A stretch of 64,000 bases of DNA from an uncultured Chloroflexia bacterium (GCA_963797095.1 CAWCNY010000005.1:681507-745506); one strand, 5' to 3'. Positions 28,629 to 43,953 are shown, numbered from the stretch's first letter. Notes: generated by a model from the sequence alone, not told the origin. Program-made: numbers and translations.

Positions 28629-28838
28629 GAGGGCAGCAGCGGGCACCAAAAGTGTCATCCACACACAGTACCTATTGGTATGGATCGATCACTCACCTGG
28701 TGGGTGCCGGTGTGGTATCATAATCAGCAGGCAGGGGCGATGTCTCGACCTGCATAAAACCTATTGGACTTCCGTTCGTATATAGGTGAGGGAAACCGCG
28801 AGAGTAGAGCGCATGATAGGAATGGGAACACAAGGGGC

Positions 28839-29744
28839 ATGATGAGGGCCGCCCGGGAAACAACGGTAAGCACGACCGCCACGCGCACGCGAGGGCGGTA
28901 TTGCAATATGTGCGGCACAAGGCTTGCGCGCGGAAGCGGGCTTGCGCTCTTCCCGAGCAGGCACAGCATCGAATGGCACGATTCGAGCGACGATGCCAAC
29001 GACGCGGGTCGAGCAACCACCTGGTCCTTATGTGAGGAATGTTACGCCGACAGATTGAAATGTGCTTCATGCGGCTTGCAGGTGGGCACGCAGGCTTTCA
29101 TGCTCGAGGGCGAGACAAGGATCTATTGCAAGCATTGTTTCGAGGAAAGGCCGAGGTGTGATACCTGCGGCGCGCCCGTAGGTGCACATTACTGGAACCG
29201 CACCGATGGCAGGAAGCTATGTGACAGGTGCCAATCGACGGTCGTCTCGGATAAGAAGCAGGCCGAAGGGCTGTATGACGGCGTGCGCACTGCGCTTATG
29301 CGCATGCTGGGGGTGACCCTGAAGAAGCCGTGCGGGTTGCAGCTTGTGAGCCGCAGCCAGTTGTTGGGGCTGATCGCGAAGTCTTCGCTTTACAGCCTGG
29401 ACGCTGAGAGCAAAGACAGATGCTTCGGTCTGTTCATCAGGGAAGGCAGGCACAGGGCGATTTTTGTGGAGTATGCGCTGCCCCAGATCGTGTTGCTAGA
29501 AGTGATGGCACATGAGTACGCCCACGCCTGGCAGAATGAGCAGTGCCAGCACGAGCTTGATCCTGAGATGCAGGAAGGGTTCGCCGAGTGGATTACCTAT
29601 AAGCTGCTCCAGGGGTGGAACTGCAAGAAACGCATGGAGCGAATGCTGAGGCGCGATGATATTTACGGTCGTGGCTTGAAAAAAATGCTACAATGGGAGG
29701 CCGAAGGGGGTATAGCCAAAGTATTCAGGCAAGTGCAGGGATAA
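28839..29744 (+). CDS. DA1-like protein: LIM-like zinc fingers plus HEXXH metallopeptidase
   Basis: Six CxxC pairs followed by AHEYAHAW...QEGFAEW...DIYGRG, resembling the DA1/DUF3633 peptidase; start placed after AAGGGG. Confidence 0.8.
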   Translation: MMRAARETTVSTTATRTRGRYCNMCGTRLARGSGLALFPSRHSIEWHDSSDDANDAGRATTWSLCEECYADRLKCASCGLQVGTQAFMLEGETRIYCKHCFEERPRCDTCGAPVGAHYWNRTDGRKLCDRCQSTVVSDKKQAEGLYDGVRTALMRMLGVTLKKPCGLQLVSRSQLLGLIAKSSLYSLDAESKDRCFGLFIREGRHRAIFVEYALPQIVLLEVMAHEYAHAWQNEQCQHELDPEMQEGFAEWITYKLLQGWNCKKRMERMLRRDDIYGRGLKKMLQWEAEGGIAKVFRQVQG

Positions 29745-29767
29745 GTTCCAGGTTCGGAGGACGGAGC

Positions 29768-31150
29768 ATGACTGATGAAATAGCGCTCAATTGCTTGCTG
29801 AACATGCGCACCGTGCCCGCAGCGAGTGAGCCGCGATTGCTTTATCTGCTGATCGATGTAAAGCCGGGCGCGGGGGCCGCGCCTTTACAAGCGCCTATGA
29901 ATATCGCCGTGGTGATCGACGTAAGCGAGTCGATGCGCCTCCCCGTGCTGTCACAAGAGCAGTTCGAGGAGTTATCGCGGTTGGGGCATGTGAACCAGAC
30001 CACATCTGACGGGGTGCCCGTGTGGACCTTCAAGAGCATTCCTGAGCATATTCGGAAGCGAGCGCCATCTAACCTTGAGGCTGTGCAGGCGTCTATCTCG
30101 CAGGCAGCCCAGCATTTTGAGGGCGGCGACCGGGTATCGCTGGTGGCCTTTGCCGACCAGCCGCAGGTGCTATTGAGCGGGCTGGCTGGAAGCGAGCTCG
30201 GGCAGGTGTTGGATGCTGTGCAATCGTTAGAGCAGGTGAAACTGGGCGATGGCACGGATATAGCTAAGGGGTTAGAAGCGGGGCTGACCGAGGTGCACAA
30301 AGGCATGGGCAACAAGGCCAATTTCGTAAACAGGGTGCTGGTGCTAACGGACGGCTTTACGCAGGACCCCGTCAAGGCCACCGCAAGAGCGAAGCAGGGG
30401 CGGAATGTGGGGATAGCGGTCAGCACGATAGGTATTGGTACGGAGTTCAACGAGAAGTTGCTGCTCGATATGGCAGATATCAGCCTGGGGAACGCCTATT
30501 TCGCACGCACACCAGCCGAGATACCGCCCGCCTTCGGGCAGGAGTTGGCGGCTGTACAGTCGGTAATCTTGAGAGATATAGAGGTGGAGATGAAGTTCAG
30601 CACGGGGGTGGAAGTAAGGAGGGCCTACAGGGTGCGCCCGGCCATCGCCACCGTGCGAGACGCCCGGCGCGAAGGGCGCGCATTGGGCGTGACGATGGGC
30701 GACCTGGACCCTGCGAACCCGCCCGCCTTGCTGGTGGAGTGCATCATCCCCACCCATGCAGGGGGCACGTTCAGGATCACTAGGGTAACCGCCACGTACA
30801 AGAACGAACATGGCGAGCGAGTGCCGGGGGCAACCTCGGACGTGGTGGTTAACTATTCCACCAGCAAGCGCAAGGACGAACCCGATCCGATGGTGATGAA
30901 CACGGTAGAGAGGGTAACGGCATACGCACTGCAAACGCGGGCGCTGGACGACCTGGCGACCGGGAACGTGGCAGCAGCCACCCAGAAGTTGCGTGCGGCA
31001 GTTACAAGGCTGCTGACGGTAGGAGAAACAGCACTAGCGGACGCTGTGCAAGCAGAGGCCGCGCGGTTGGCCCGAAGTGGGGAAGTGTCGCCGGAGAGCC
31101 AGAAGGAATTGCGCTATGCGACGCGCAGGCTTACGCAGAAGTTGGAGTAG
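29768..31150 (+). CDS. von Willebrand factor A (vWA) domain protein
   Basis: MIDAS DVSES, GTD, VLTDG, STIGIG; beta-sandwich region and helical C-terminus. Confidence 0.9.
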   Translation: MTDEIALNCLLNMRTVPAASEPRLLYLLIDVKPGAGAAPLQAPMNIAVVIDVSESMRLPVLSQEQFEELSRLGHVNQTTSDGVPVWTFKSIPEHIRKRAPSNLEAVQASISQAAQHFEGGDRVSLVAFADQPQVLLSGLAGSELGQVLDAVQSLEQVKLGDGTDIAKGLEAGLTEVHKGMGNKANFVNRVLVLTDGFTQDPVKATARAKQGRNVGIAVSTIGIGTEFNEKLLLDMADISLGNAYFARTPAEIPPAFGQELAAVQSVILRDIEVEMKFSTGVEVRRAYRVRPAIATVRDARREGRALGVTMGDLDPANPPALLVECIIPTHAGGTFRITRVTATYKNEHGERVPGATSDVVVNYSTSKRKDEPDPMVMNTVERVTAYALQTRALDDLATGNVAAATQKLRAAVTRLLTVGETALADAVQAEAARLARSGEVSPESQKELRYATRRLTQKLE

Positions 31151-31244: not shown

Positions 31245-33540
31245 ATGTCACGAATTTGCCCTATTTGTGGAAAGATGAACCCGGACACGGCGGGCAGTTG
31301 CGATGTGTGTGGAACACCGCTGCACGCGACTGAAGCCGTGGGCGCAGGCCAGGTGAATGGTGTGGCTGTGCAGACTGTGGGCAGCGCCCTGGGTGCGTTT
31401 GGGAATGGGATCGATTCTATTCTTGGCCCCGGCGACGCGCTACCGTCCGGGCAGCCGATGAGCGGGCCGATCTGCCCCAAGTGCAGGCGGGGCAATCGTG
31501 CTCATTCGGCGTTTTGCGCGTATTGTGGATACAGGTTGAAGTCGGACAACGGCACCGGCAATGGGCTTGCTCCTCATAATGGGTCGAACGGATTGCAGGC
31601 GCAGGCTTACGCCGCCTCAGCAGTATCGCCCGCGCCGCCTACATCACCTATGCCGCCGGTGGATGGGTCGGGCAACATACCGGCAGGGGTCATTCTCAAG
31701 AGGAGATTCCGCATTCCTGCGAAAGATCGCGCAGGGCGGTATGGGCGCGGTCTACGAAAGCCTGGACGTTACCGAGAATGACGGCAGGCGCTGGGCGGTG
31801 AAGGAGATGAGCCCGGCGGCCCTCCCGGCCAACGAGCGGACGGCTGCCGTGGCCGATTTCAGGCGGGAAGCGTCGATTTTGCACGGGTTGAAGCACCCCA
31901 ACCTGCCCGAAGTGCGCGAGACATTCGAGGAGATGGGCAGGTATTTCCTGGTGATGGAGTTCATCGCCGGGCGCACGCTGCTGAACCTTGTGGATATGAC
32001 GCCGGGCTTCATTCCGGAAGAGCGGGTCATGGTGTGGGCGCGACAATTGATCGAAGTGCTGCACTATCTCCATTCTCAGGACCCGCCAATCATCTACCGC
32101 GACGTGAAACCGGCCAATGTGATGCTGGTGGAGGGAACCGAGCGGATCAAGCTTATCGACTTCGGCATTGCGCGGTTCCACAGGCAGGGCAAGGTGCAGG
32201 ACACCGAGGCATTCGGGACGGCGGGCTACGCGCCTCCTGAGCAGTACGGCAAGGGACAGACCGACCAGCGCTCGGATATTTACGCGCTGGGGGCCACGCT
32301 ACACCATATCCTGACCAAGCAGGACCCCAGCCTCAACCCGTTCAATTGGGTACCCGCGCGACGGATGAACCCTAACGTATCACCCGCAATGGAAAACGCC
32401 CTGATGATCGCCACCAGCCTCGACCCTGCGCGTAGATTCAGGACAATCGAGGACTTTGGGCAGGCGCTGGGCGTCTACCTGCCGGGTGGGCTTGCGCATG
32501 CCAAGCCGATCATGGTAGGTCTCAACAACCCACGCCCGTATGTGGTATCCGCGCCGCCACCGCCGGTGATTCCAACAGAACCCATACCTGCTGCCAAGCC
32601 CGCAACAGCCACGTCAACGAGCCAGAAGCCGCGCACAAGCACATCGAAGAAGAAGACGACTTCGAGCGCGGCGGCGACGCCTGCACCTGCCAAGCCCGCG
32701 TCGAAGGTCACACCTGCCGGTGCTGCGCTTACGCCTGTACCGATTGTGGCATCAACTTCCTCGGCTGGGACAGTGATCGAAAACTCCGAGGTGCTGATAC
32801 CGACCAACACCGGCGTTGTGGACGAGAGCCAGGTAGCCACGCCACCGGCAACTTCTACTGCGGTTGCTCCGGTTGCCCAGCCTGCGCTGCCCGCCGAGAA
32901 GAAGCAGGAAAGTGGCAAGCCGGTGCTGGCTCAACAGATACTGGACCTGGGCGAGGCGCGTTGGAACAGCCGCGTTACCAAGAAAGTGCCTGTTACAACC
33001 ACCGGCGGGGCAGTGAGGGGGATGGTACTTGCAACTCAACCGTGGATAGCTTACAATCCACAGCACTTCCAGGGAAGCGCGGTCAGCATAGATGTGCACG
33101 TTAAGAGGCGTCAATTGAAGTTTGGACGCGTGGAGTTGCAAGTCCCGAATCTATTCGCTATTATATGGGCACGGTCACGCAGGGTCCTACCATTCATCCT
33201 GGTGTGGTTCTGGTTACTACTCCTGCTGGTAGGCACACTTGGTAGGATACTTCTGACCACAGCAGCGGTGGCAATAGGAGGGCTGCTGGTGCTTGAGGGT
33301 CTGATGTGGCTGTGGGCACAGCACGTTCGCCTGCTTGTGCCATCGGAGAGGGTCAATACGGGACGATTGATGGTGAAAAGCTCTGGCGGCGACAGCAGTA
33401 TCGAGGTGCGTGTGCTTGCCAGGCCATCATGGGTACAACGCACGGTAGGTTGGTCGATTGCTCTATTATTGTTCGTAACCGAGATAGTTCTGGCGACGTG
33501 GACTGTCCTGTCTCTGTTCGGGATCGAGATACCGCTTTGA
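31245..33540 (+). CDS. Double zinc-ribbon Ser/Thr protein kinase with C-terminal TM helices, +1 frameshift at 31716-31717
   Basis: Removing one C from CGCATTCCTGCGAAAG gives RRFRILRKIAQGGMGAVY and joins ORFs 31245 and 31561; AVKE, YRDVKPAN, DFG and APPE are intact. Confidence 0.85.
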
Positions 33541-33552
33541 GGAGGAATAAGG

Positions 33553-35127
33553 ATGAGATGTCCTAATTGTGGAAATGAAAACCCACCTGATTACCTGTTC
33601 TGCGACGAGTGCGGGGCACGGCTCATCGGCAACGATGTGGCTGCTATGTCAGGCACCCAGGACGCGGGCACAGACATGGACGCCGGTGGAGGTGGAGGTG
33701 GCGACAGCGCCATGTCCACGCAAGACCAGGCCGGAGCTGATATGGGAGGCGCAGCCAACTATGGAAGCTATGGCATGGGAGCCGACCAGTCTGTGCAGGG
33801 TGATGGTATGGGCGACATGGGCATGAGCGACGCAAACAACGGCGCAGCCCAGATGGCCGCCGACAGTGCGGACGATGAGACAGGGATGTCAGCTGTGCCC
33901 GTTACAGAAGATACAATGGCCGGTGAGGGCGCAGGAGCAGCAGAAGCAGCGCCTATGCCGGACGTGATCCGGCCGCTGACACCTATAGCTTCAAATGCGG
34001 ATCAGGACGCATCCATGGCCGATCAGGATGTGCAAGCAGGGGCATCCGCCAACGACGATGCACAGGAGAGCATGTCCGGGCCTGCCGATGATGCCAGGAT
34101 GGCGGTTGATGAGGGCATGGCCGAGGCGACAGGCATCTCAGGGAGCGCAGCCAGCATAAGCTCGATGCCCGACGCCGGGTATACAGAGGACGAAGCAGTA
34201 GCTGTGCCGATGGGCGATGTAGCCGACGAGAGCGGGCTGGCTGGCGCGGCGGGCAGCGAATGGGCTGCACATGCGCTTGATCTGTTGAACAGGGCACAGG
34301 ATGCCCTTTCAAACGCAGATTGGCGTATGTTCGGCGAGTTCATGCACAATCTGAAGTCGTCGTTGCAAGCGTCAGCGGCAGGAGCAGCAAGCTCAGCGGG
34401 TGCGATGCCGGTGGCACAGCCGGAAAGCGAAGCGCCCGCGATGCCTATGAGCGCTGATAGCGATATGTCGGGCACGCAGGCGCAAGATATGGGCGGTGCA
34501 AGCCCTAGCGCAGGTATGGCAAGCGACGCGGGCGCAGACAGCACAATGATGAGCGGCTCTCCAAGCAGCATGGCTATGGATGGAGGAGCACCATCAGCAC
34601 CGGCGACATACGAAGCCCCGCCGGTGGCCCCGATGAGCAGCACAGCCGATAGTATGGACAGCGGTATGCAGGCTACGAGTATGGATGCGGGGATGAGTAC
34701 AGCAAGCGCACCTTCGGAAGCGATGATGAACGCAGCGCCCACCAGCCCGCCTCCCACAGTCACCCCAATGGCATCAACTCCACCGCAGCCCGCCCCCGCG
34801 CCCTCCGGTGCCAGGCTGATCCTCATTTCGACAGGCGCTGAGATGGCGCTGCCCGACCAGGAGGAGATCACTGTTGGGCGCGAAGACCCCAGCAGCGGCA
34901 TCTTCCCCGATGTTGACCTGACTCCTTATGGAGGAGAAGACGGGGGAGTGTCTCGCAGGCACTCCAGGCTGCTCCATATAGGCGACGACTACTTCGTGGA
35001 GGACTTGCAGTCTACCAACTTCACCAAGCTGGACGGCCAGCGCCTGCCGGCGCATGTGCGCGAGCGGTTGGAAGATGGAGCGCGGCTCGATTTCGGACGC
35101 GTGGCGATGATCTTCCGCCGGGGGTAA
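33553..35127 (+). CDS. Zinc ribbon - acidic low-complexity linker - FHA domain protein
   Basis: CPNCGNEN...FCDECG; Ala/Asp/Met/Ser-rich middle; VGRED, VSRRH, DLQSTNFT, LEDGARL. Confidence 0.9.
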   Translation: MRCPNCGNENPPDYLFCDECGARLIGNDVAAMSGTQDAGTDMDAGGGGGGDSAMSTQDQAGADMGGAANYGSYGMGADQSVQGDGMGDMGMSDANNGAAQMAADSADDETGMSAVPVTEDTMAGEGAGAAEAAPMPDVIRPLTPIASNADQDASMADQDVQAGASANDDAQESMSGPADDARMAVDEGMAEATGISGSAASISSMPDAGYTEDEAVAVPMGDVADESGLAGAAGSEWAAHALDLLNRAQDALSNADWRMFGEFMHNLKSSLQASAAGAASSAGAMPVAQPESEAPAMPMSADSDMSGTQAQDMGGASPSAGMASDAGADSTMMSGSPSSMAMDGGAPSAPATYEAPPVAPMSSTADSMDSGMQATSMDAGMSTASAPSEAMMNAAPTSPPPTVTPMASTPPQPAPAPSGARLILISTGAEMALPDQEEITVGREDPSSGIFPDVDLTPYGGEDGGVSRRHSRLLHIGDDYFVEDLQSTNFTKLDGQRLPAHVRERLEDGARLDFGRVAMIFRRG

Positions 35128-35134
35128 AATCCGC

Positions 35135-35181
35135 AAGATCTAAAAAACCTGGACGCTGAGCGTCCAGGTTTTTTAGATCTT
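35135..35181. terminator. Bidirectional terminator between the two convergent signalling operons
   Basis: Perfect palindrome AAGATCTAAAAAACCTGGACGCT-G-AGCGTCCAGGTTTTTTAGATCTT. Confidence 0.9.
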
Positions 35182-35186
35182 ATCAA

Positions 35187-37775
35187 TTACATATTGTTAA
35201 GCGCAGTCGGGTGATCGGCCATGGGAAGGTATTCGGTCACATCGATCACGATAGTGGTGATATTGTCGTGGCCACCTGCCTGGTTGGCAAGCTCTATCAG
35301 GTCGTGGGCAGCCACGTTGGGATCGTCGGTGTTAGCGAGGGCATCTTCGATAGCCTCGTCTTCAACCATGCTGTTGAGACCGTCAGAGCAGAGAAGGAGG
35401 CGGTCGCCCGGTTGGAGGGTACGCACAAAAGTATCCACTTCCACAGGGGGTGGTCCACCGAGCGAGCGGTAGATGAAGTTGCGGTGCGGGTGTATCTTAG
35501 CCTCTTCGGGGTCAAGTTGGCCTAACTCCACCAGGCGATGCACCAGCGAGTGGTCCACGGAGACCTGGGAGAGGGTATATTCGCTCCTGTCGATCTTGGG
35601 CTTGCCAAGATCAAGAGGGATTTCAGGCGGGGCAGATGGCATGAGGGGAGCGGTACCGGCGAGGGGAGTGGTGCCTTTGACGATTGGCGCGGTCTCGCGG
35701 ACGGCGGCTTCGGCTGAGCTACGCGGCCTGGCATAGTGATAAATCCTGCTGTCGCCCACGTTTACGATATAGGCTTTGCCCCCCGCTACGAGAGCGGCCA
35801 CTATGGTGGTGCCCATGTCGTTCTGGCGGTTATCCCTGGCGCGATAGATGCGCTCGTTAGCCGATTGCACAGCGCGCACCATGCCCGCGAATATGGCCTC
35901 GTTGTTGGGCGCAGCACGCTCGGCAGGAGCCGCTATAAGAGAAGACACGACGCGGGACAGCACCTCGCCATAGAAGGCCTGTACGGCCAGGGCGCTGGCT
36001 ATCTCGCCGCCTTTGTGCCCGCCCAGACCGTCGGCAACCACATAGAGGCCAACGCGCAGCGGACGCTCGGCGCTGCCCTGTACAAACTCGGCCATGCCGA
36101 AAGAGTCCTGGTTGTTGTCGCGCAGGCGACCAACGTTGGTAAGACCGGCGGCGGTGAAAGCGACCGGGATGCCTGGTCTCTCAAGCTCGGCCACCGCCTC
36201 CATAGCCACGGCCAGGAGGTCGCGCCAGCGAGCCGCGCTGATGGGAGGTGCTATGCCCTGGGCAGGCTCGATGGCGGTGCGGAAGGCAGCGCCTACCTGT
36301 TCAGGAGCCGAGGACGGCATGGGCAGGATGCCCTCAGGGCTGAGGGAGGCAGCTTGGCCTGTGTAGGCTTCGTACATCGTGCCCGCAAGACGGGCCAGGT
36401 CGATCACCTGGTTCTGGGTCATCTCATCGACACTCTCCACCCGCGTGCGGGCGTTCTGAAGAGATGCAAGGGATGCGCGATCGCCTTGAACCAGGATATC
36501 GTCGGCTTCGGCACCGGCACCGACCACGCCACGGCTATGCAGATAGTCGAGGGCATCGGCCAATTGCATGGCCCAGTTGAGGACCTGGCCACCGTTGCGG
36601 GGGAGGCTCAACTGGCTGAGGCGCACACCCTGGCGAGGCTCGGCGACCGCGTAGTATCGGGTATGGCCGAACGGTTTGTAGCTGAAGAAATCTATCACCG
36701 GCACGAGGTTAGGGTGATACAGGTTGAGATCCATGATGCCGGGGTCCTGCATGAGGCTGGTTGGCATATAGCTCTCGGCCATCAGGTAGAAGTCAGCGGT
36801 GGCTTGGTCGGTTAAGGCCGTGCCGCAGTGAGGACAGTCTGCAAGGTCTACGCTGGAGATACGCCCGCAAGTTGGGCATTTCTGCTGCTTCTTCGTGGAA
36901 ACACGGTAGAGATTGCGGTCCTCACCGTGGTGCAGCAGGCTGCCGACCACATATTTGTTGTCAATAACGAAGTTGACGGCGAGAGGGGTAAGTTCCTCCT
37001 GCACTTCGGACTCAAGTTGAGGGCTGGTCTCAAGTCCCGGATCGGTATCGCGGTCCTCAAGCTCAGATATAGGAGATGCAGCCGTAGGATCCGCTGCGGC
37101 CTCCGCATGTACCGGACTTTCGCCTTCGGCGTCGCGTACGGGTGGGGCAACATCTTCTCCTTGTGCGGCCTCTTCCGATACTTCTACAGGTTCGACAGCG
37201 GTACCCTCTAGCTGCTGAACGGCCACAGCCTCATCCTCAGCGATTAGCGGGGCCTGTGCAGCATCTTCCACGGCTGCCATTTCGGGAGATGCCTCCTGGG
37301 TAGCAGGCTCACGTGGGGCGAGGGCTTCCATAGGAAGAGGCGAGGTCTGAGGTACGACCTTTCCACCACGCCTGGGGCGGACGGGGAGGTCGGGCGTGGG
37401 CGGCAAATCAGCTACGGGTTCCGCCTCCACACCATTTTCAGCAACCAATTCCGCCTCAGCACCGGTTTCCATACCTGATGCCGCCTCGGTACCGTTTCCC
37501 CCAATCGAAGCTGCGACCTCATCCTCGGCGGTTTCATCGGGCAAGTACATGCCCTCAGGCAATCTACCCAGGAGAGCAGCGGCAGCCTCGTTCTCATCGT
37601 CGTACTCATCTTGCTCAGGGGACATTGGAACATCCTGCTGGTCGGCAACCGGCTCAGATTCTGCCACATTCTGCTGGTCGGCAACCGGCTCAGGTTTGAT
37701 GCCGGGATCGGGATCGCTCTGGGTTTCGTCTGGCGGTGGGGCCTGTTGTTTAGATGTGCGGCGTATCCTATTCAT
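35187..37775 (-). CDS. Acidic N-terminus - zinc-ribbon pseudokinase - PP2C (PPM) phosphatase fusion
   Basis: NQDSF, VADGLGGH, MGTT, NVGDSR, LCSDGL and GGHDNIT intact; kinase-like HPNLVPVIDFF and QLADALDYLH, but no HRD or DFG. Confidence 0.88.
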   Translation of the reverse strand: MNRIRRTSKQQAPPPDETQSDPDPGIKPEPVADQQNVAESEPVADQQDVPMSPEQDEYDDENEAAAALLGRLPEGMYLPDETAEDEVAASIGGNGTEAASGMETGAEAELVAENGVEAEPVADLPPTPDLPVRPRRGGKVVPQTSPLPMEALAPREPATQEASPEMAAVEDAAQAPLIAEDEAVAVQQLEGTAVEPVEVSEEAAQGEDVAPPVRDAEGESPVHAEAAADPTAASPISELEDRDTDPGLETSPQLESEVQEELTPLAVNFVIDNKYVVGSLLHHGEDRNLYRVSTKKQQKCPTCGRISSVDLADCPHCGTALTDQATADFYLMAESYMPTSLMQDPGIMDLNLYHPNLVPVIDFFSYKPFGHTRYYAVAEPRQGVRLSQLSLPRNGGQVLNWAMQLADALDYLHSRGVVGAGAEADDILVQGDRASLASLQNARTRVESVDEMTQNQVIDLARLAGTMYEAYTGQAASLSPEGILPMPSSAPEQVGAAFRTAIEPAQGIAPPISAARWRDLLAVAMEAVAELERPGIPVAFTAAGLTNVGRLRDNNQDSFGMAEFVQGSAERPLRVGLYVVADGLGGHKGGEIASALAVQAFYGEVLSRVVSSLIAAPAERAAPNNEAIFAGMVRAVQSANERIYRARDNRQNDMGTTIVAALVAGGKAYIVNVGDSRIYHYARPRSSAEAAVRETAPIVKGTTPLAGTAPLMPSAPPEIPLDLGKPKIDRSEYTLSQVSVDHSLVHRLVELGQLDPEEAKIHPHRNFIYRSLGGPPPVEVDTFVRTLQPGDRLLLCSDGLNSMVEDEAIEDALANTDDPNVAAHDLIELANQAGGHDNITTIVIDVTEYLPMADHPTALNNM

Positions 37776-37810
37776 TTATACTCCGTATCATGATTGCCAT
37801 TGGATAAGTT

Positions 37811-37850
37811 CCGAGTACTGAGTACTGAGTATTGGGTATTGAGTAGCGAG
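37811..37850. repeat. 7-nt tandem repeat (GAGTACT family)
   Basis: gagtact gagtact gagtatt gggtatt gagtagc. Confidence 0.8.
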
Positions 37851-37909
37851 TTCCGGGTTCGTGGTTGTGACTTCCTGACCTGGTTCAGTGAATCCTTTCG
37901 CATGTAAAG

Positions 37910-38935
37910 CTATGGGATGCGATAAACGAAGCGGACGCTGCCGATCCGTAATTGATCGCCGTTGGAGATGGCAGCAGCGGTGTTGGCTTCCAGCCGGGTA
38001 TCGTTGATGAACGTGCCGGTGGGAGCGCCGAGATCTGTAACGGAGAATGAGCCATCGTCGTTGCGGAGAAGCTGGGCGTGGCGCGGGGCGACAGTGGAGC
38101 CACCCGCAAAGACCTTATCTATCATGATGTCGCAACCTGATGCCGAACCAAGCACGATACGCTTGCGAGAAAGGACGTATTCCAACTGCTCATCTGTACG
38201 GTCGAGGGTCTCCAGGTAGGGCATATCTTCGGTGACTACATCGGCAGGTGGAGACATGGTCGCGATGATGGAGGCACGCACGGGGCGCAAGTCCTGACCG
38301 CAATTATGACAGAAGTTCTCGTTCCAATCGTTTTCGGTGTTGCAGTTGGGACATGTAAGAGTGGCAGGAAGGGTGGAAGGGGCAGAAGGCGCGGGCGCGG
38401 CGGCTGCTGTGGCAGCAGGAGTTGTGGTGGTTGTGGGAGCAACTGTTGGTGTAGGACGGACGCGTGGAGCGGCCGGCGCTGCCACTGTGGGACCCGCGGC
38501 ACTAAGCATGGGACGTCGCGAGCGCAACATAAGCACAACGATCACGCCAAGCGCAACCACTACGAGCAGGATGATCGTTATCAGCCAGGGGAAGCCCCCG
38601 GAAGGGGACGCAGCGCTGGGTGTTACGTTCTGGCCCGGAGGGGCTGTATCTGAGTTGGGGTTAGCGGGCACACCGTCACCGGTAGGCACCGCTGCGGGCG
38701 GCACACCGCTGGGGGCAGGCAGGGGAACTGTCGGTACTTCCACGGGGGCGGTGGCCTGTGCGAGCGGACCTGAGAGCGATTTAAGAGAACCTGATGCCTG
38801 GGCAGCGCCCCAACCGAATGCCAAAATGAAGACGAGGAAGAGCGCCGAAATGGAAATAACGCCACTAAGCGTGCCCGCTGATGTAGCGCGACCGGCGCTT
38901 CTAGCTGAATGTGTGCGATTAGTACGATGGTTCAA
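37910..38935 (-). CDS. Membrane protein with cytoplasmic zinc ribbon and degenerate FHA domain
   Basis: AGGAGG RBS, TTG start; signal/TM helix, Pro-rich linker, TM helix, CPNC..N..FCHNCG, FHA fold (DLGAPTGTFIN, ISNGDQLRIG). Confidence 0.85.
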   Translation of the reverse strand: MNHRTNRTHSARSAGRATSAGTLSGVISISALFLVFILAFGWGAAQASGSLKSLSGPLAQATAPVEVPTVPLPAPSGVPPAAVPTGDGVPANPNSDTAPPGQNVTPSAASPSGGFPWLITIILLVVVALGVIVVLMLRSRRPMLSAAGPTVAAPAAPRVRPTPTVAPTTTTTPAATAAAAPAPSAPSTLPATLTCPNCNTENDWNENFCHNCGQDLRPVRASIIATMSPPADVVTEDMPYLETLDRTDEQLEYVLSRKRIVLGSASGCDIMIDKVFAGGSTVAPRHAQLLRNDDGSFSVTDLGAPTGTFINDTRLEANTAAAISNGDQLRIGSVRFVYRIP

Positions 38936-39043
38936 TTACGAAGTTTCCTCCTGGGTATATCCGGATTCCGGTTTAGTCACAAGAACCCATTATACCAGCC
39001 ACGTTCTGGAAACGGCAATCTTTGGATGGATTACAGACGATAT

Positions 39044-39106
39044 GTGACGAGTGGCGCGTGGCGAGTGACGAGTGGCGCGTGGCGAGTGACGAGTGACAAG
39101 TGGCGG
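39044..39106. repeat. 7-nt tandem repeat (GTGACGA/GTGGCGC family)
   Basis: About nine heptamers in the intergenic space. Confidence 0.85.
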
Positions 39107-39115
39107 GCGATGAAG

Positions 39116-40651
39116 TTAGCCTCCGAGGATAAAGTTGCATTGGACTTTGCCGATGCGAACCCGATCGCCATTGCGAAGGCGAGTGGGAACGCCACCGGGC
39201 AAGCGGCGATCATTGAGGAAGGTGCCATTGGCGCTTCCCAGGTCTTCGAGGAAATAGCCACCAGCATCGGAGAGGATGCGAGCGTGCTGCCTGGATACGT
39301 AGGCAGCGGGGTCGTTATAGGTGAGGTCGAGGTGAGGGAATATCTGGCGCGAGAGGCTGCGGCGGCCTACGTTGAAGGGGTTTTCGAGGATGCGCCGCTC
39401 CCAGAGCACACCGTTGGGGCCTAGCACCTGGATCTTGCCGGGCGGCCTGCCCGCTAGCGATGCTCCACAGCGCCCGCAGAAGTGGGCCTTGCCCTGGTTG
39501 GTAGCCCCGCACACCATACAGACCTTATCTGTGCTGGGTATGGGCTGGATGGGTTGGATGGGCTGGCCGGGGTTGGTAGGAGGCGCGGGTATGGTAGGGG
39601 AGGTGGGAGGCATACCAAGCCCAGGGTTGGAGACGACTTGGGGATAGGCCCCCTGGCCCGGGTTCGCCAACGGCTGGATGGGCGAGATAGGGGAGATGGG
39701 GTTGATTCCAGGCTGGGTGGCAGGGTTGGAAGGCAAAGGTTGGATTAGCGAAGCCCGCTCGTCGCCGACGGGAGCGGTGTAGGGTTTGCCCAGGCAGGAA
39801 CGCAGCTCATGCTCGAGGATAAGGGCGGTCTGCGGGCGTGCGTTCATATCACGCGACATGGAACGAATAACGAGGATCTCTGTCTTGGGGCTGATGCGGG
39901 GGTTATGGTCGCGCAGATTGGCGGGGGTGGTGGCGGGAGTGGGTGGCCTGCCGGTCAGCAGGTGGTAGAGAGTAGCCGCCAGCGAATAAACATCTGAGCG
40001 GGCATCGGTCTGGCCTTTGCCGAACTGCTCGAATGGAGCGTAGGCGGCGGTGCCCATAGACATAGTGTCTTTGCGCTTGCCCTCTTTGTAAGTGCGCGCT
40101 ATGCCGAAGTCGATCAGCTTGATCTGGGCGTTCGGCATGATCATAATATTGGCGGGCTTGACATCGCGGAAGATGATGGGCGGGTCCTGGGTATGCAGGA
40201 ACTGGAGGACTTCGCACATCTGGATGCCATACTGAAGAGCCTCTTCCTCGTTCATGGGCTGGCCGTGCAGGCGGTCGATCTTCTTTTCAAGCGATTCGCC
40301 AGGGATCAATTCCATTACGAGGTAGGGCCTGCCGCCTTCGGTAAAGAAATCCGTGACGCGGGGAAGGTTATGGTGGCGCAGATCGCTAAGTATCTGGGCC
40401 TCGCGTCTGAAGGCTTCGAGTAGCTGACGGCGTTCTTCGCGCTCGCGGGCGTGATCTTCTTCGGTCTGGGCGGCGGGAGGGCGAGCAGCGTGGGACTCTA
40501 TATCGGTACGCATCTCTTTGACGGCCACATGCATACCGCCGTTGCGGGTATCCTCGGATTTATACACAGCGCCCATGCCGCCGCCCCCGATCACGCGCAG
40601 GATGCGGTAGCGGCCACGCAACATATAGCCGATGGGAAGAAATTCGTACAT
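39116..40651 (-). CDS. Ser/Thr protein kinase - Pro-rich linker - zinc ribbon - FHA
   Basis: GGGGMGAVY, AVKE, FRDVKPAN, DFG, APFE; CMVC..N..FCGRCG; VGRR, VSRQH, DLGSANGT. Confidence 0.93.
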   Translation of the reverse strand: MYEFLPIGYMLRGRYRILRVIGGGGMGAVYKSEDTRNGGMHVAVKEMRTDIESHAARPPAAQTEEDHAREREERRQLLEAFRREAQILSDLRHHNLPRVTDFFTEGGRPYLVMELIPGESLEKKIDRLHGQPMNEEEALQYGIQMCEVLQFLHTQDPPIIFRDVKPANIMIMPNAQIKLIDFGIARTYKEGKRKDTMSMGTAAYAPFEQFGKGQTDARSDVYSLAATLYHLLTGRPPTPATTPANLRDHNPRISPKTEILVIRSMSRDMNARPQTALILEHELRSCLGKPYTAPVGDERASLIQPLPSNPATQPGINPISPISPIQPLANPGQGAYPQVVSNPGLGMPPTSPTIPAPPTNPGQPIQPIQPIPSTDKVCMVCGATNQGKAHFCGRCGASLAGRPPGKIQVLGPNGVLWERRILENPFNVGRRSLSRQIFPHLDLTYNDPAAYVSRQHARILSDAGGYFLEDLGSANGTFLNDRRLPGGVPTRLRNGDRVRIGKVQCNFILGG

Positions 40652-40896
40652 TGCTCATCTAGATTATAGGTTGGCACGTGGCTTATGTCAACGAGTGGGA
40701 AGTAGGAAAGGGGTACTAATCGCTTAAAGATTTTCGGCTGGTATGGTCTTGCACACAGGGCCGCAACTCATAGATGGGTGATTGCGTAAGTGATATGGAT
40801 GGGGGTTGCTTCCGTCCCAATTAAGCGGATTGCGGACGGAAGCACACTCCTTACGCTAATGATGGCACATACGCGCCGTAAGGCTTATAATCAGGG

Positions 40897-40952
40897 CGTG
40901 ATACGCGACTGGCGTGCTACGTGATACGTGCTGCGCTATACGTGCTGCGCTC
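40897..40952. repeat. 7-nt tandem repeat (GTGATAC/GTGCTAC family)
   Basis: About eight degenerate heptamers upstream of the UPF0182 gene. Confidence 0.7.
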
Positions 40953-40986
40953 GGTACTCTGGGTCCTAAAAGGGCGGTGTATTGTT

Positions 40987-43953
40987 ATGTCTACTAATAA
41001 TTCGGGGAACAACAGGCAAGGGCGATCCGGTAATAACAATTCTTCTACGGTGCGGATGATGCCCAATCGGCCATCGAGAAGGTGGCGAAGTTGGATCATA
41101 TGGATCGTCGTGGCGATCTTCGTACTGGCTATTTTGATCCCTTCGCTGCTGGCCGAGGCGATCACCGACTGGATGTGGTTCGGCAGCCAGGGGCTGGCCG
41201 ATGTGTACACGACTCGGCTGTGGCTCGCGTTGGGCGTATTCGTAGGAGGGCTGGCGCTGGGGCTGATATTCCTCCTTGTCAACTGGCTTGGTGCTCTCAG
41301 AGCCGTACAGCCGGGCACGCTATTCGAGGGGCAGCAGGAAGTGATACCGAGGGGCGCGGCGCGCTGGATCGCGATTAGCCTGGCGGTGGCGATTGCCTTC
41401 TTCATGGGGCTGGCGGCAGCCGATGAGTGGCCCAATATCCTCCTGTTCGTGAATGGCGGGCCGTTCGGGCAGACCGACCCCATCTTCGGCAACGATATAG
41501 GGTTTTATGTGTTTGAGTTGCCTTTCTTCCGCCTGCTGAGGGGGTGGGCGCTTGTACTGCTGATCCTGACAGCCATAGGCACGGTGATCATCTACGCGGT
41601 GGGGCATTCCCCGCAGTTCGTACGCCAGTTGAGCGAGCAGTTACCTAGGCAAGGCGGGCCAAGGCGTAGCACGATCAATTTGCAGGGCCTATCTTTCCGC
41701 CTTCCCCAATCGGCGAGTGTGCACCTGACGGTGCTGGGGGCGATCTTCCTGGCCCTGATCGGGATCGGCTACTGGTTCGACCGCTTCGATCTGCTCTATT
41801 CGGAGCACGATCTGGTCTACGGAGCAGATTATACTGATGTGAACGCGACGCTTCCGGCGCTCAATATTATGATGGTTATAGCAGGGGCGATGGTGATATT
41901 GCTGATCGCCAACCTGTGGGTAAGGACGTGGCGGCTGCTGGCGGGGGCGCTGGGGTTGTGGCTCATCGCGCTGATACTGGTCAAGGGCCTCTATCCGACC
42001 ATAATCCAGCAATTCGTTGTACAACCCAACCAGTCGCAACTTGAAACGCCCTATATAGAGAACAGCATCAAAGCCACGCGGCAGGCGTTCGGGTTGGACC
42101 AGTTCCATGAGCAGGAAGTGCCAGCAGTTTCTTCGATAACCAGGGAGCAGGTAAACGAAAACCCCAACATCACCAACAATATACGCCTGTGGGACTACCG
42201 GCCTTTGCTCGATACGTACAGCAAGTTGCAGGAGATAAGGACCTATTACTCACTGGATGACGTGGATATTGACCGTTACACCCTGGATGGGAAACAGAGG
42301 CAGGTAATGCTCTCGGCGCGTGAGCTTAACTCCAATGAATTGAGCGAAAACATCAGGACATGGGAGAATGTGCACTTCCGGTACACTCACGGCTACGGGG
42401 TGGTCATGTCAACGGTGAACGATATAGAGGGCGAGGGATTGCCTAACCTGCTGATCAAGGATATACCGCCCGTGGCAAGCGCGCCGGAGCTTCAAATCAC
42501 GCGCCCTGAGATCTATTACGGGGAGGAGACGGACGAGTACGTGTTCGTCAACTCAACAGATATCCAGGAGTTCGACTACCCGCTAGGCGATACCAACAAG
42601 TTCACCAGCTACAAGGGCAGCGGAGGGGTGGAAGTCAGCGATTTCTTCACCAAGCTGCTGTTCGCGGTGCGGTTCGGGGATGGCAATATCATGTTGTCGC
42701 CCTATATTACGCCTGGTACAAGAGTGCTCTATCACCGGAATATCTCCGAAATGCTGGAGCAGCTAGCGCCCTTCCTGAGGTATGAGGATGACCCTTACAT
42801 GGTGGTGGTGGATGGCAAACTGTACTGGATAGAGGACGCGCACACTTACACAGACCGCTATCCATATTCGACGCCTTTCAAGTACGGCGCGTTCGACACC
42901 GGTCTCAATTACATCCGCAACTCGGTGAAGGTGGTAATCGACGCCTATGAGGGCACCGCGACCTACTATGTGATCGATCCGACCGATCCGTTGATCAACG
43001 CTTACAGACGCATCTTCCCCGACCTGTTCAAGGATGCGAGCGAGATGCCCGCCGGAATCAGGGCGCACCTGCGATACCCGGAAGGGCTTATGGATATTCA
43101 GGCCCGGATGTACACAGTGTTCCACATGACCGACCCGCAGGTGTTCTACACGAAGGAAGACGTGTGGGCACTGCCATCGGACAGCGCGATAAACGCCAGT
43201 AACAGCAACGTGGTGATCCCCGAAGCATATTATGTCAATATACAACTGCCCGGCGAGCAAAAGGTGGACTTTATGCTGATCCAGTCGTTCACGCCCAATA
43301 CGAAAGACAATATGATCGCGTGGATGGCGGCGAAGAGCGACCCGCAGGACTACGGGCAGGTGGAGGTGATCAGGTATCCGAAACAGCAGCTCGTGTACGG
43401 GCCAAGCCAGATAGAAGCGCGCATCGACCAGAACACTACCATTTCGCAGCAATTATCGCTGTGGAACGGGAGCGGCTCGGAGGTGATCAGGGGGAACCTG
43501 CTGACGATTCCGATCTCGAACACGCTGTTGTATATAGAGCCGCTCTTCTTGAAGGCCACCACGCCAGGAAGCTTCCCGGAGCTAAAGCGAATCATTGTAG
43601 CGACCGGCAACAACGTGGGGATCGGGGATGACCTGGCGGAAGCGTTGGATGTGGCGTTCAATCTGAAAGCGCCTGAAGTAATCCCTGGCACGGGCGAGGC
43701 CACGCCAACACCGGCACCGGGGGTGACGCCGCAGCCTACAAGCCCGCAACCCACGCCTGGAGGGACCGTAACTGTGACCGGGCGCAGTGTGGAGGAGATA
43801 ACCCAGTCAGCCCTCGACCACTACAACCGCGCCCAGGAAGCGCTAAAGCGAGGCGATTGGACCACCTACGGGGAAGAGATCGACGCCATGAAAGCCGACC
43901 TCGATGAGTTAGCCCAGATCACAGGCGTGCCCGTCCCAACGGCAATTCCATAG
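40987..43953 (+). CDS. UPF0182-family membrane protein
   Basis: TDWMWF, DPIFGNDIGFYVFELP, NIRLWDYRP, YTHGYG, RPEIYYGE, NYIRNSVK, HLRYPE, VIRGNLL, AQEALKRGDW..YGE. Confidence 0.95.
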   Translation: MSTNNSGNNRQGRSGNNNSSTVRMMPNRPSRRWRSWIIWIVVAIFVLAILIPSLLAEAITDWMWFGSQGLADVYTTRLWLALGVFVGGLALGLIFLLVNWLGALRAVQPGTLFEGQQEVIPRGAARWIAISLAVAIAFFMGLAAADEWPNILLFVNGGPFGQTDPIFGNDIGFYVFELPFFRLLRGWALVLLILTAIGTVIIYAVGHSPQFVRQLSEQLPRQGGPRRSTINLQGLSFRLPQSASVHLTVLGAIFLALIGIGYWFDRFDLLYSEHDLVYGADYTDVNATLPALNIMMVIAGAMVILLIANLWVRTWRLLAGALGLWLIALILVKGLYPTIIQQFVVQPNQSQLETPYIENSIKATRQAFGLDQFHEQEVPAVSSITREQVNENPNITNNIRLWDYRPLLDTYSKLQEIRTYYSLDDVDIDRYTLDGKQRQVMLSARELNSNELSENIRTWENVHFRYTHGYGVVMSTVNDIEGEGLPNLLIKDIPPVASAPELQITRPEIYYGEETDEYVFVNSTDIQEFDYPLGDTNKFTSYKGSGGVEVSDFFTKLLFAVRFGDGNIMLSPYITPGTRVLYHRNISEMLEQLAPFLRYEDDPYMVVVDGKLYWIEDAHTYTDRYPYSTPFKYGAFDTGLNYIRNSVKVVIDAYEGTATYYVIDPTDPLINAYRRIFPDLFKDASEMPAGIRAHLRYPEGLMDIQARMYTVFHMTDPQVFYTKEDVWALPSDSAINASNSNVVIPEAYYVNIQLPGEQKVDFMLIQSFTPNTKDNMIAWMAAKSDPQDYGQVEVIRYPKQQLVYGPSQIEARIDQNTTISQQLSLWNGSGSEVIRGNLLTIPISNTLLYIEPLFLKATTPGSFPELKRIIVATGNNVGIGDDLAEALDVAFNLKAPEVIPGTGEATPTPAPGVTPQPTSPQPTPGGTVTVTGRSVEEITQSALDHYNRAQEALKRGDWTTYGEEIDAMKADLDELAQITGVPVPTAIP

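What the first reader, a model, noticed from the sequence alone, without database searches (positions are those of the whole stretch)
34261..43911. The UPF0182 C-terminal helical motif is duplicated inside the neighbouring FHA protein
Seen: in the otherwise disordered middle of the FHA protein (34261-34368) lies ALDLLNRAQDALSNADWRMFGEFMHNLKSSL. The UPF0182 C-terminus (43801-43911) reads ALDHYNRAQEALKRGDWTTYGEEIDAMKADL. They align with no gaps and 15 of 31 identities, and both hang on flexible linkers. Established: the AQ.AL..GDW..YGE motif is the conserved tail of UPF0182 proteins. Inference: it is a portable docking hairpin for hetero-dimerisation or for binding a shared partner, which links UPF0182 to phospho-signalling. 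Caveat: the UPF0182 tail follows a PT linker and may be extracytoplasmic, whereas the FHA protein has no signal peptide.
Basis: partly seen in the sequence, partly recalled or inferred. Interest (0 to 1): 0.8.

Follow-up and report, generated by a model that had tools for sequence, protein, structure and literature searches.

The report
UPF0182 tail hairpin copied into FHA protein
A small two-helix module that normally ends a widespread membrane protein (UPF0182) has been copied into the floppy middle of a nearby phospho-signalling (FHA) protein in one group of uncultured Chloroflexia, but the two copies probably sit on opposite sides of the membrane and so probably do not touch.

Summary
The two segments share 15 of 31 ungapped identities, and 0 of 200 shuffles reach that. 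A profile built only from UPF0182 tails finds the FHA protein as the only other hit in the 6-Mb genome, at E 1.1e-4. Profile-profile E is 6.7e-12. The segment is kept in all 23 in-genus FHA proteins I extracted, although their linkers are otherwise unalignable. AlphaFold2 gives helix-turn-helix in the same register in both proteins, flanked by disorder.

The hairpin is native to UPF0182 tails across Chloroflexota and occurs in a Longimicrobiales protein. The only second architecture found is zinc ribbon, linker, hairpin, linker, FHA, and it is confined to one genus.

The proposed hetero-dimerisation or shared partner is not supported:
- UPF0182 has 7 TM helices with its C-terminal domain outside (bioRxiv 10.1101/2025.11.14.688347).
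- Two lineages carry cysteine pairs in the tail hairpin.
- The FHA protein has no membrane segment.
- The polar surface residues invariant in the tails are not kept in the FHA copy.

Best reading: a co-opted, autonomously folding interaction module, probably self-associating. This function is inferred, not shown.

The parts
33553..35127 (+). Gene for the 524-aa zinc-ribbon / disordered linker / hairpin / disordered linker / FHA protein. It starts 13 nt after the stop of the upstream Ser/Thr kinase gene.
   Evidence: ORF; Pfam Zn_Ribbon_1 at residues 3-24 and FHA at 439-515; the same 524-aa protein is on record in the protein collection.
33559..33624 (+). N-terminal zinc ribbon (residues 3-24).
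   Evidence: PF13240, 31.2 bits against a cut-off of 25; mostly invariant or nearly invariant in 22 orthologues.
33898..33918 (+). Short conserved linear motif P-V-T-E-D-T-M (residues 116-122) inside the disordered linker. It is a candidate phospho-threonine site (inference).
   Evidence: E119 is invariant and P116, T118, D120 and T121 are nearly invariant in 22 orthologues.
34258..34395 (+). The FHA-protein hairpin: helix 236-253, G/A-D turn, helix 257-281. The conserved core is residues 237-274 (window 34261-34374).
   Evidence: AlphaFold2 pLDDT about 97 for 241-270; W237, A238, A241, L242, L245, A248, Q249, G255, D256, W257, G261, L267 and L271 are invariant or nearly so; it is an island of conservation between linkers with majority-residue fraction 0.23-0.33.
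34867..35097 (+). C-terminal FHA (phospho-threonine-binding) domain, residues 439-515.
   Evidence: PF00498, 40.6 bits against a cut-off of 20.7.
40921..43953 (+). UPF0182 gene. The ORF from GTG 40921 gives 1010 aa. The form on record is 988 aa, so the start is probably the ATG at 40987.
   Evidence: PF03699, 958.8 bits, residues 61-848; NCBIfam NF000825 covers residues 51-998; a 988-aa protein from a contig of the same length as the window's contig (745,506 bases).
41095..41991 (+). Seven transmembrane segments (residues about 59-357), N-terminus inside, C-terminal domain outside.
   Evidence: Hydropathy peaks with alternating K/R-rich and D/E-rich loops; the family is described as 7 TM helices plus a large periplasmic domain.
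43684..43776 (+). Pro/Thr-rich flexible linker (residues about 922-952) between the periplasmic domain and the tail hairpin.
   Evidence: pLDDT below 50 in the AlphaFold2 model of residues 841-1010; composition read from the sequence.
43789..43923 (+). UPF0182 C-terminal hairpin: helices about 957-976 and 980-1001, with a G-D-W turn.
   Evidence: AlphaFold2 pLDDT 85-90; H, Y, A, A, L, D, Y, E and L are invariant in 28 tails; hhalign against the FHA hairpins gives probability 97.5%, E 6.7e-12.
29693..31150 (+). Context: vWA-domain protein.
   Evidence: PF00092, E 3.6e-18.
31561..33540 (+). Context: Ser/Thr protein kinase with a hydrophobic C-terminal region, immediately upstream of the FHA gene.
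   Evidence: PF00069, E 7.4e-39; sequence.
35187..37775 (-). Context: PP2C-type phosphatase (862 aa).
   Evidence: PF13672, E 1.4e-18.
37910..38935 (-). Context: second zinc-ribbon/FHA protein (341 aa), without a hairpin.
   Evidence: Pfam; the genome-wide hairpin searches hit only two places.
39116..40651 (-). Context: kinase / zinc-ribbon / FHA fusion (511 aa), divergent from the UPF0182 gene.
   Evidence: Pfam.

Best explanation
The segment in the FHA protein is a true homologue of the C-terminal two-helix hairpin of UPF0182 proteins. That hairpin is a roughly 40-residue module tethered by a flexible linker to the extracytoplasmic domain of a 7-TM protein. The module is native to UPF0182. 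In the ancestor of one genus-level lineage of uncultured Chloroflexia, a copy became embedded in the disordered linker of a cytoplasmic zinc-ribbon/FHA protein whose gene lies about 10 kb from the UPF0182 gene. The donor cannot be resolved. It may have been the neighbouring gene or a foreign UPF0182. In the FHA protein the hairpin is the only folded island between the zinc ribbon and the FHA domain. It most likely works as an autonomous protein-protein interaction module. My preferred mechanism is self-association, with two hairpins forming a four-helix bundle, which would make the phospho-threonine reader multivalent. It does not contact the UPF0182 tail, because the two copies lie on opposite sides of the membrane and have different conserved surfaces. 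Shown here: homology, conservation, predicted fold, distribution and predicted topology. Inferred: the direction and mode of transfer, and self-association.
For: Homology: BLASTP E 6e-5. A tails-only HMM (A2, 28 sequences) run against the whole genome in six frames gives self at 1.8e-29, the FHA protein at 1.1e-4, and the next hit at 0.23. An HMM built only from FHA hairpins (A1), run against 1.84 billion representatives, finds UPF0182 proteins and C-terminal fragments at E 1e-8 to 1e-4. All 28 tails score 19-41 bits with the FHA HMM, and all 23 FHA hairpins score 16-33 bits with the tail HMM. hhalign gives probability 97.5%, E 6.7e-12 over 40 ungapped columns.

Conservation: 23 of 23 in-genus FHA proteins keep the segment. 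The hairpin profile hits FHA-sized frames in 24 of 26 genomes of the genus. The linkers around it are unalignable.

Fold: both models give helix, turn, helix with helix 1 ending at alignment column 22 and helix 2 starting at column 26.

Direction: UPF0182 tails with the hairpin occur in most UPF0182-bearing families of the class, across Chloroflexota (297 of 364 pattern matches confirmed), and in a Longimicrobiales protein. The FHA form was found only in the one genus. FHA orthologues of the two sister families lack it.

Proximity: the FHA and UPF0182 genes are 9-14 kb apart on one contig in 7 of 26 genus genomes. They are also on one contig in G035 of sister family f3, whose FHA orthologue gave no hairpin-profile hit. 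FHA orthologues of other f3 genomes were read and lack the hairpin.

Separate compartments.

Interaction surface: in the FHA copies the heptad positions a, d and g are apolar in both helices (fractions 1.0, 1.0 and 0.6-0.8). That face is wider than a lone hairpin needs.
Against: Self-association is not shown. It rests on the apolar a/d/g stripe alone, and a docking partner would explain that stripe equally well.

Both hairpin alignments were cut out with the same regular expression, which inflates the hhalign figure. The genome-wide searches and the database search do not depend on that regex.

The FHA hairpins are no closer to the tails of their own genus than to tails of other families. Own-order tails score a mean of 30.8 bits with the FHA HMM. 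Tails of families f16, f17 and f12 score up to 48 bits, and the best foreign tails score 38-54 bits. A simple local duplication is therefore not demonstrated.

The topology is predicted, not measured.

A 40-residue helical motif rich in Ala, Leu and Gln could in principle converge.
Confidence: 0.5

Rival explanations
1. One reading: the hairpin is a docking element through which the FHA protein and UPF0182 hetero-dimerise, or through which both bind the same partner. This would couple UPF0182 to Ser/Thr phospho-signalling.
For: The two hairpins are homologous. The genes are near neighbours, about 10 kb apart on one contig in 7 of 26 genus genomes. The hairpin is under strong constraint in both proteins.
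Against: Predicted topology puts the UPF0182 tail outside and the FHA protein inside (preprint passages). Cysteine pairs occur in tails of families f3 (7 of 7) and f7 (4 of 4), and there are none in the 23 FHA copies. Invariant polar tail residues H13, T28, E32 and D39 are not kept in the FHA copies. Sister families keep the gene neighbourhood without the FHA hairpin. In G003 (20 contigs) the two genes lie on different contigs.
Confidence: 0.1
2. The FHA hairpin is a docking site for a cytoplasmic partner encoded in the same cluster (the vWA protein, a kinase or the PP2C phosphatase). It would be a new partner unrelated to whatever the UPF0182 tail binds.
For: The FHA copies have their own conserved positions (W6, A7, L11, apolar g positions) that the tails lack. 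The gene sits in a vWA / kinase / FHA / PP2C / FHA / kinase-FHA cluster.
Against: Nothing tested here bears on any particular partner. The same apolar face is explained equally well by self-association.
Confidence: 0.25
3. The likeness is convergence or chance. Both are generic amphipathic helix-turn-helix segments with a common G-D-aromatic turn, and they are not homologous.
For: A local A..AL..GD[WY]..[FY]G pattern also occurs in unrelated galactokinase-like GHMP kinases. The motif is short and of biased composition.
Against: The GHMP matches cover only about 20 columns at E 0.14 against the PDB, or about 4e-4 per genome. The FHA/UPF match covers 40 ungapped columns. It is the only such pair in the genome. 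It recurs in orthologous pairs in at least ten genomes in a search that used no regex. 0 of 200 shuffles reach the observed identity.
Confidence: 0.07

Closest known systems
C-terminal region of UPF0182 proteins, including the 'disorder region plus coiled-coil' of Corynebacterium diphtheriae DIP0733 (PMC6123952; passages read)
   Same: Same host family. The preprint lists the C. diphtheriae adhesion phenotype among UPF0182-family phenotypes. Same position: the last 30-40 residues, after a disordered linker. It is thought by those authors to be extracellular, and they left open whether it binds other proteins or holds oligomers together.
   Different: I did not test whether the DIP0733 coil is homologous to this hairpin, because no actinobacterial sequence was available to me. 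Those authors report the coil only in some Corynebacterium species. Here the hairpin is near-universal in Chloroflexia UPF0182. Their additional files could not be seen.
UPF0182 family as described in bioRxiv 10.1101/2025.11.14.688347 (section 9 read): 7 TM helices plus a periplasmic dome, an AlphaFold3-predicted homotetramer, phenotypically linked to FtsH and YccA
   Same: The window's protein is a full-length member (PF03699, 958.8 bits) with 7 predicted TM segments.
   Different: The section I read says nothing about the C-terminal hairpin or about FHA proteins. No FtsH or YccA gene lies among the neighbours I scanned.
Bacterial FHA scaffold proteins with long disordered linkers, such as mycobacterial FhaA and FhaB/FipA (recalled; only the NCBIfam FhaB_Rv0019c model was compared)
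   Same: A C-terminal FHA domain, a long low-complexity linker, and a location in a kinase/phosphatase cluster.
   Different: It is not an FhaB equivalog (36 bits against a cut-off of 125). It has an N-terminal zinc ribbon and the UPF0182-type hairpin in the linker. I found neither annotated for this architecture: the database names are only 'FHA domain-containing protein' and 'zinc-ribbon domain-containing protein'.
Helix-turn-helix of galactokinase-type GHMP kinases
   Same: The local pattern A..AL..GD[YW]..FG..M.
   Different: It covers only about 18-20 columns, is not significant (E 0.14), and is embedded in a large enzyme fold. It is an analogue or a false positive, not a relative.

Membership tests
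UPF0182 C-terminal hairpin module (no curated family of its own), tested on the FHA-protein segment | Two helices joined by a tight G-D-W turn, in the same register | tested here: met
   AlphaFold2: helix 1 ends at alignment column 22 and helix 2 starts at column 26 in both proteins.
UPF0182 C-terminal hairpin module, tested on the FHA-protein segment | Framework residues A10, apolar 14, A17-Q18, A20, apolar 21, G24-D25-W26, [FY]29-G30, apolar 33 and 36, [KR]37, L40 | tested here: met
   Column profiles of 23 FHA hairpins and 28 tails; the tails-only HMM hits the FHA protein at E 1.1e-4 genome-wide.
UPF0182 C-terminal hairpin module, tested on the FHA-protein segment | Invariant polar surface residues of the tails (H13, T28, E32, D39) | tested here: not met
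   These columns are variable or apolar in the FHA copies.
UPF0182 C-terminal hairpin module, tested on the FHA-protein segment | Sits at the C-terminus of a UPF0182 protein, outside the cell membrane | tested here: not met
   It is internal (residues 236-281 of 524) in a protein with no hydrophobic segment (maximum 19-residue hydropathy 0.8).
UPF0182 (PF03699), tested on the 1010-aa ORF | Full-length match to the family model above the curated cut-off, and 7 N-terminal TM segments | tested here: met
   958.8 bits against a cut-off of 27, model positions 2-770 of 770; 7 TM segments. The NCBIfam subfamily and equivalog models all fall below their own cut-offs (873.9 against 995), so no named subfamily is claimed.
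FHA domain (PF00498), tested on the 524-aa protein | Match above the gathering score | tested here: met
   40.6 bits against 20.7, residues 439-515.
FhaB/FipA equivalog (NF049868) | Score above the equivalog cut-off | tested here: not met
   36 bits against 125.
TPR and DUF4363 as possible parents of the hairpin | A significant Pfam match | tested here: not met
   TPR_18 E 0.14. DUF4363 gives 15.6 bits against 27.5, for the UPF tail only. Nothing matches the FHA hairpin.
DIP0733-type C-terminal coiled coil | Sequence homology to the coil at residues 961-983 of DIP0733 | not tested
Only passages of the paper were read.

The most novel reading that the evidence does not exclude
The cytoplasmic FHA protein captured the tail module of the neighbouring FtsH-linked membrane protein in order to engage the same assembly. 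For example, it might bind UPF0182 or a common transmembrane partner before or during membrane insertion, or through a partner that spans the membrane. Ser/Thr phospho-signalling would then gate membrane-protein quality control in these Chloroflexia. The evidence makes this unlikely on topology and on the differing surfaces, but does not exclude it, because both the topology and the partner are only predicted.
Probability: 0.07. Interest if true: 0.75.

Novelty: new variant of a known kind. Interest (0 to 1): 0.4.

Why it matters
UPF0182 is a large and widespread family whose function is still poorly understood. A 2026 preprint ties it to FtsH-mediated membrane-protein quality control. An older paper found the C-terminal coil of one member important for adhesion. 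This work delimits that tail as a discrete, autonomously folding hairpin of about 40 residues. The hairpin lies outside the Pfam model and has been reused at least once in a quite different protein, in the opposite compartment. That reuse argues the hairpin carries a self-contained activity, most simply oligomerisation or docking, that can be studied as a peptide. It gives a simple handle on what the UPF0182 tail does. It is also a clean example of a mini-domain moving between genes that are now neighbours. It does not, as things stand, connect UPF0182 to phospho-signalling.

Tried and rejected
- Complex prediction with two copies of the FHA hairpin (alignment A1) gave no verdict. The median score was 0.36 against a mark of 0.42. 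I do not use it for or against binding.
- The search for related loci with A3 and with A1 failed because no stretch was conserved enough. A2 worked.
- The ESM Atlas search with the hairpin, leaving out PF03699, gave no usable hit.
- PDB by sequence gave no UPF0182 structure and no significant relative of the hairpin.
- Pfam on the hairpins gave nothing significant.
- Third carriers were considered and set aside:
  - Frames of about 405 aa in several genomes are galactokinase-like, with partial matches only.
  - P0037 is a 1415-aa repeat protein with eight partial (columns 19-39) matches.
  - P0073 and P0104 come from contigs of 562 and 660 bases.
  - P0053 and P0064 have unrelated N-termini joined to a UPF0182-like end. 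I could not tell real genes from chimeric assemblies.
- I tried to identify the donor by HMM scores. This is unresolved, and the foreign tails were pre-selected by the same HMM, so that comparison is biased.
- I made no fold search with the models, because a 45-residue hairpin would match countless helical pairs.

Full report
**1. What is there**

Window 33553-35127 (+) encodes a 524-aa protein. It has an N-terminal zinc ribbon (residues 3-24) and a C-terminal FHA domain (439-515), with low-complexity sequence in between. Window 40921-43953 (+) encodes a UPF0182 protein (PF03699, 958.8 bits, residues 61-848). The form on record is 988 aa, so the true start is probably the ATG at 40987.

The genes between and around them are:
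- a vWA protein (29693-31150);
- a Ser/Thr kinase (31561-33540, ending 13 nt before the FHA gene);
- a PP2C phosphatase (35187-37775, minus strand);
- a second zinc-ribbon/FHA protein (37910-38935, minus strand);
- a kinase/zinc-ribbon/FHA fusion (39116-40651, minus strand).

Further neighbours are unrelated: a DA1-like peptidase, a PMT_2 glycosyltransferase, ribosomal protein L1, an ECF sigma factor with its anti-sigma factor, and a cyclase. No FtsH or YccA gene is among them. Names given by public sources to the closest database proteins place the organism among uncultured Chloroflexia.

**2.

They share 15 of 31 ungapped identities. In 200 shuffles of the FHA protein, the best ungapped 31-mer against UPF0182 averaged 9.7 with a maximum of 12, and none reached 15. 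BLASTP gives 17/43 identities, no gaps, E 6e-5.

Searching the whole 6.0-Mb genome in six frames gives:
- with the 37-aa tail, only the tail itself and the FHA protein (E 7e-4);
- with a profile of 28 UPF0182 tails and no FHA sequence, self at 1.8e-29, the FHA protein at 1.1e-4, and the next hit at 0.23.

**3. Orthologous FHA proteins conserve the segment**

A search of 40 relatives with the FHA protein gave 23 in-genus loci, including the window's own. All 23 carry the segment. Twenty-two were found by a loose pattern. The 23rd (L011) has Ala for the Gly after the aromatic residue.

Three of the 23 loci (L015, L024, L025) come from genomes flagged as unpublished (G016, G021, G022). Without them the count is 20 of 20.

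In the full-length alignment of 22 orthologues, the majority-residue fraction by region is:

| Region | Fraction |
|---|---|
| Zinc ribbon | 0.95 |
| FHA region | 0.90 |
| Hairpin (232-272) | 0.62 |
| Flanking linkers | 0.23-0.35 |

The hairpin is therefore an island of constraint. In the class-wide search, the hairpin profile hit an FHA-sized frame in 24 of 26 genomes of the genus. The two without a hit are 71% and 57% complete.

**4. Reciprocal and profile evidence of homology**

A profile of the 23 FHA hairpins alone was run against 1.84 billion representative proteins. It gave 219 hits at E <= 1e-3 and 31 at E <= 1e-10.

By pattern, 29 of the 150 listed hits have a zinc ribbon or FHA signature, and two more (P0009, P0010) are mid-protein fragments of the same kind. 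These account for the 31 top hits. Of the rest:
- 23 carry UPF0182 core signatures upstream;
- 5 carry the conserved segment that precedes the linker;
- 93 fell into 'other'.

On reading, most of the 93 are short C-terminal pieces beginning at or near that same pre-linker segment. I did not classify each one rigorously.

Cross-scoring gives 19-41 bits for all 28 tails under the FHA profile, and 16-33 bits for all 23 FHA hairpins under the tail profile. hhalign of the two alignments gives probability 97.5%, E 6.7e-12 over 40 ungapped columns. Both alignments were cut out with one regular expression, which favours this number. The searches do not share that bias. In one search, a 162-aa tail query hit the FHA proteins of at least ten genomes.

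**5. Fold**

AlphaFold2 on the FHA protein with its 22-sequence alignment gives a mean pLDDT of only 50.5. Helices 236-253 and 257-281 nevertheless reach pLDDT about 97, the most confident part of the model. The linkers are below 50.

The last 170 residues of UPF0182, with 26 sequences, give helices at protein residues about 957-976 and 980-1001 (pLDDT 85-90). They follow a linker (about 922-952) below 50.

In alignment columns, helix 1 ends at 22 and helix 2 begins at 26 in both proteins.

**6. Where the module belongs**

In 301 genomes of the class, PF03699 is present in 124 and the combined hairpin profile matches in 116. By family the two go together:

| Family | UPF0182 present | Hairpin profile matches |
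|---|---|---|
| f7 | 9/9 | 9/9 |
| f12 | 53/62 | 52/62 |
| f16 | 3/3 | 3/3 |
| f17 | 2/2 | 2/2 |
| f2 | 5/5 | 5/5 |
| f3 | 8/9 | 8/9 |
| f6 | 16/16 | 5/16, weakly |

- A pattern scan of all species genomes found 364 matches, of which 297 were confirmed. The 80 kept are titled Chloroflexia, Anaerolineae, Caldilineaceae, Thermomicrobiales, Limnocylindria and others.
- One hit of the FHA profile is a Longimicrobiales UPF0182 protein.
- NCBIfam full-length models extend over the hairpin, although Pfam's model stops at residue 848.
- The word-indexed search of 5.8 billion proteins with the combined profile gave 82 hits among 7999 scored candidates. Of these, 68 carry PF03699, 3 have the zinc-ribbon/FHA architecture, and 11 short proteins have no Pfam hit, five of which JGI names as UPF0182 family.

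I found no convincing third architecture (see Tried and rejected).

**7. The FHA copy is lineage-specific**

- Outside the genus, every strong hit lay in a frame of about 900-1400 aa or in a short, contig-truncated one. I inspected three of these (G158, G165, G225), and all are UPF0182. The others I did not inspect one by one.
- FHA orthologues of sister family f3 have glycine-zipper-like repeats and extra zinc ribbons instead of the hairpin (L026-L032; L031 comes from an unpublished genome).
- FHA orthologues of family f2 have neither the zinc ribbon nor the hairpin (L095-L098).
- The FHA and UPF0182 genes lie 9-14 kb apart on one contig in 7 of 26 genus genomes (G000, G004, G007, G012, G018, G021, G121).
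- They are also on one contig in f3 genome G035, where the FHA orthologue gave no hairpin-profile hit. The neighbourhood therefore seems older than the hairpin in the FHA gene.
- In the remaining genomes the two genes are on different contigs, and most of those assemblies are fragmented. In G003 (20 contigs) they are on different contigs, and UPF0182 there is split by an in-frame TAG.

The donor is unresolved. With the FHA profile, own-order tails score a mean of 30.8 bits. Tails of f16, f17 and f12 score 25-48 bits. The best foreign tails score 38-54 bits, but they were pre-selected by that same profile.

**8. Compartments**

UPF0182 has seven hydrophobic segments. The flanking regions alternate as follows:

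| Region | K/R | D/E |
|---|---|---|
| N-terminus | 11 | 0 |
| Loop 1 | 1 | 3 |
| Loop 2 | 3 | 2 |
| Loop 3 | 0 | 4 |
| Loop 4 | 5 | 1 |
| Loop 5 | 1 | 6 |
| Loop 6 | 2 | 0 |

By the positive-inside rule, this puts the N-terminus inside and the 650-residue C-terminal domain outside. The preprint 10.1101/2025.11.14.688347 (section 9 read) describes the family as 7 TM helices plus a large periplasmic domain. It predicts a homotetrameric dome with AlphaFold3 and links the family phenotypically to FtsH and YccA.

Two lineages carry conserved cysteine pairs in the tail:
- f3 has one Cys just before the hairpin and one near the end of helix 2 (7 of 7; 6 of 6 without the unpublished L061).
- f7 has Cys at columns 20 and 28, either side of the turn (4 of 4).

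The 23 FHA hairpins have no Cys. I read the pairs as disulfides, which fits an oxidising, extracytoplasmic location. This is an inference.

The FHA protein has no hydrophobic segment (maximum windowed hydropathy 0.8), and zinc ribbons and FHA domains are cytoplasmic modules. Direct contact between the two hairpins is therefore unlikely.

**9. Surfaces differ**

Both sets share the framework: A10, apolar 14, A17, Q18, A20, apolar 21, G24, D25, W26, F/Y29, G30, apolar 33 and 36, K/R37, L40. The tails also keep H13, T28, E32 and D39 invariant or nearly so. Those columns are variable or apolar in the FHA copies, which instead keep W6, A7 and L11 and have apolar g positions.

A shared fold with divergent surfaces argues against a shared partner. 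In the FHA copies a, d and g are apolar on both helices, a wider stripe than one hairpin needs to close on itself. That is my only positive argument for self-association or docking, and it is weak.

**10. Literature**

A full-text search for 'UPF0182' listed 12 papers, none with the term in the title or abstract. I read passages of the preprint above. I also read passages of PMC6123952, found by searching 'DIP0733' with 'coiled-coil'. That paper reports that a C-terminal disorder region plus coiled coil of a C. diphtheriae protein, thought to be extracellular, is needed for adhesion. It leaves open whether the coil binds host proteins or holds oligomers. I did not test whether that coil is this hairpin. 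I found no mention of the hairpin in FHA proteins in these two searches.

**11. Verdict**

- Homology and portability are supported.
- The functional link to phospho-signalling is not supported.

The finding is a tidy case of a mini-module co-opted across compartments, and it gives a useful delimitation of an unannotated UPF0182 tail domain.

Noticed in passing
L028-L032 (FHA orthologues of sister family f3): Where the genus has the hairpin, these proteins carry long glycine-zipper-like repeats (runs of G-x-x-x-G with Ala, Val and Ile) and two or three extra zinc ribbons. The linker of this FHA protein family seems to be a slot for different inserted modules.
   Followed up: partly
L095-L098 (FHA orthologues of family f2): These have no zinc ribbon and no hairpin. 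They have a different conserved island of about 45 residues near residue 85-130, of unknown nature.
   Followed up: no
window 33898-33918 (FHA protein residues 116-122): A near-invariant short motif, P-V-T-E-D-T-M, sits in the otherwise unalignable linker of 22 orthologues. It is a candidate phospho-threonine site for an FHA domain or for the adjacent kinase.
   Followed up: no
L056-L062 (f3) and L185-L188 (f7), UPF0182 tails: There are two different conserved cysteine pairs in or around the tail hairpin. In f3 they flank the whole hairpin. In f7 they lie at columns 20 and 28, either side of the turn. These are probably disulfide staples that arose independently.
   Followed up: partly
window 43789-43923 (UPF0182 tail), alignment A2: His13, Thr28, Glu32 and Asp39 (alignment columns) are invariant or nearly so in 28 tails and lie on surface heptad positions. 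They may form a polar binding patch or a metal site. They are not kept in the FHA copies.
   Followed up: no
window 40921-40987: The longest UPF0182 ORF starts at GTG 40921 (1010 aa), but the protein on record is 988 aa. That points to the ATG at 40987 as the start.
   Followed up: partly
G003:C9:108398-110747: UPF0182 of this relative is split by an in-frame TAG into two open frames. It is either a broken gene or a sequencing error.
   Followed up: no
L099-L101 (G135, G265, G291): Galactokinase-like GHMP kinases of about 400 aa give repeated partial hits (about 20 columns) to the hairpin profile, through a local A..A...GDW..FG.LM helix-turn-helix. This is a likely source of false positives for any future hairpin model.
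   Followed up: yes
P0037 (1415 aa, from the representative library): This repeat protein has eight partial matches (columns 19-39) to the FHA hairpin profile, within units that recur along the protein. It looks unrelated to UPF0182 and was not studied further.
   Followed up: no
window 28764-29744: A DA1-like / putative metallopeptidase ORF lies directly upstream of the vWA gene and may belong to the same signalling cluster.
   Followed up: no
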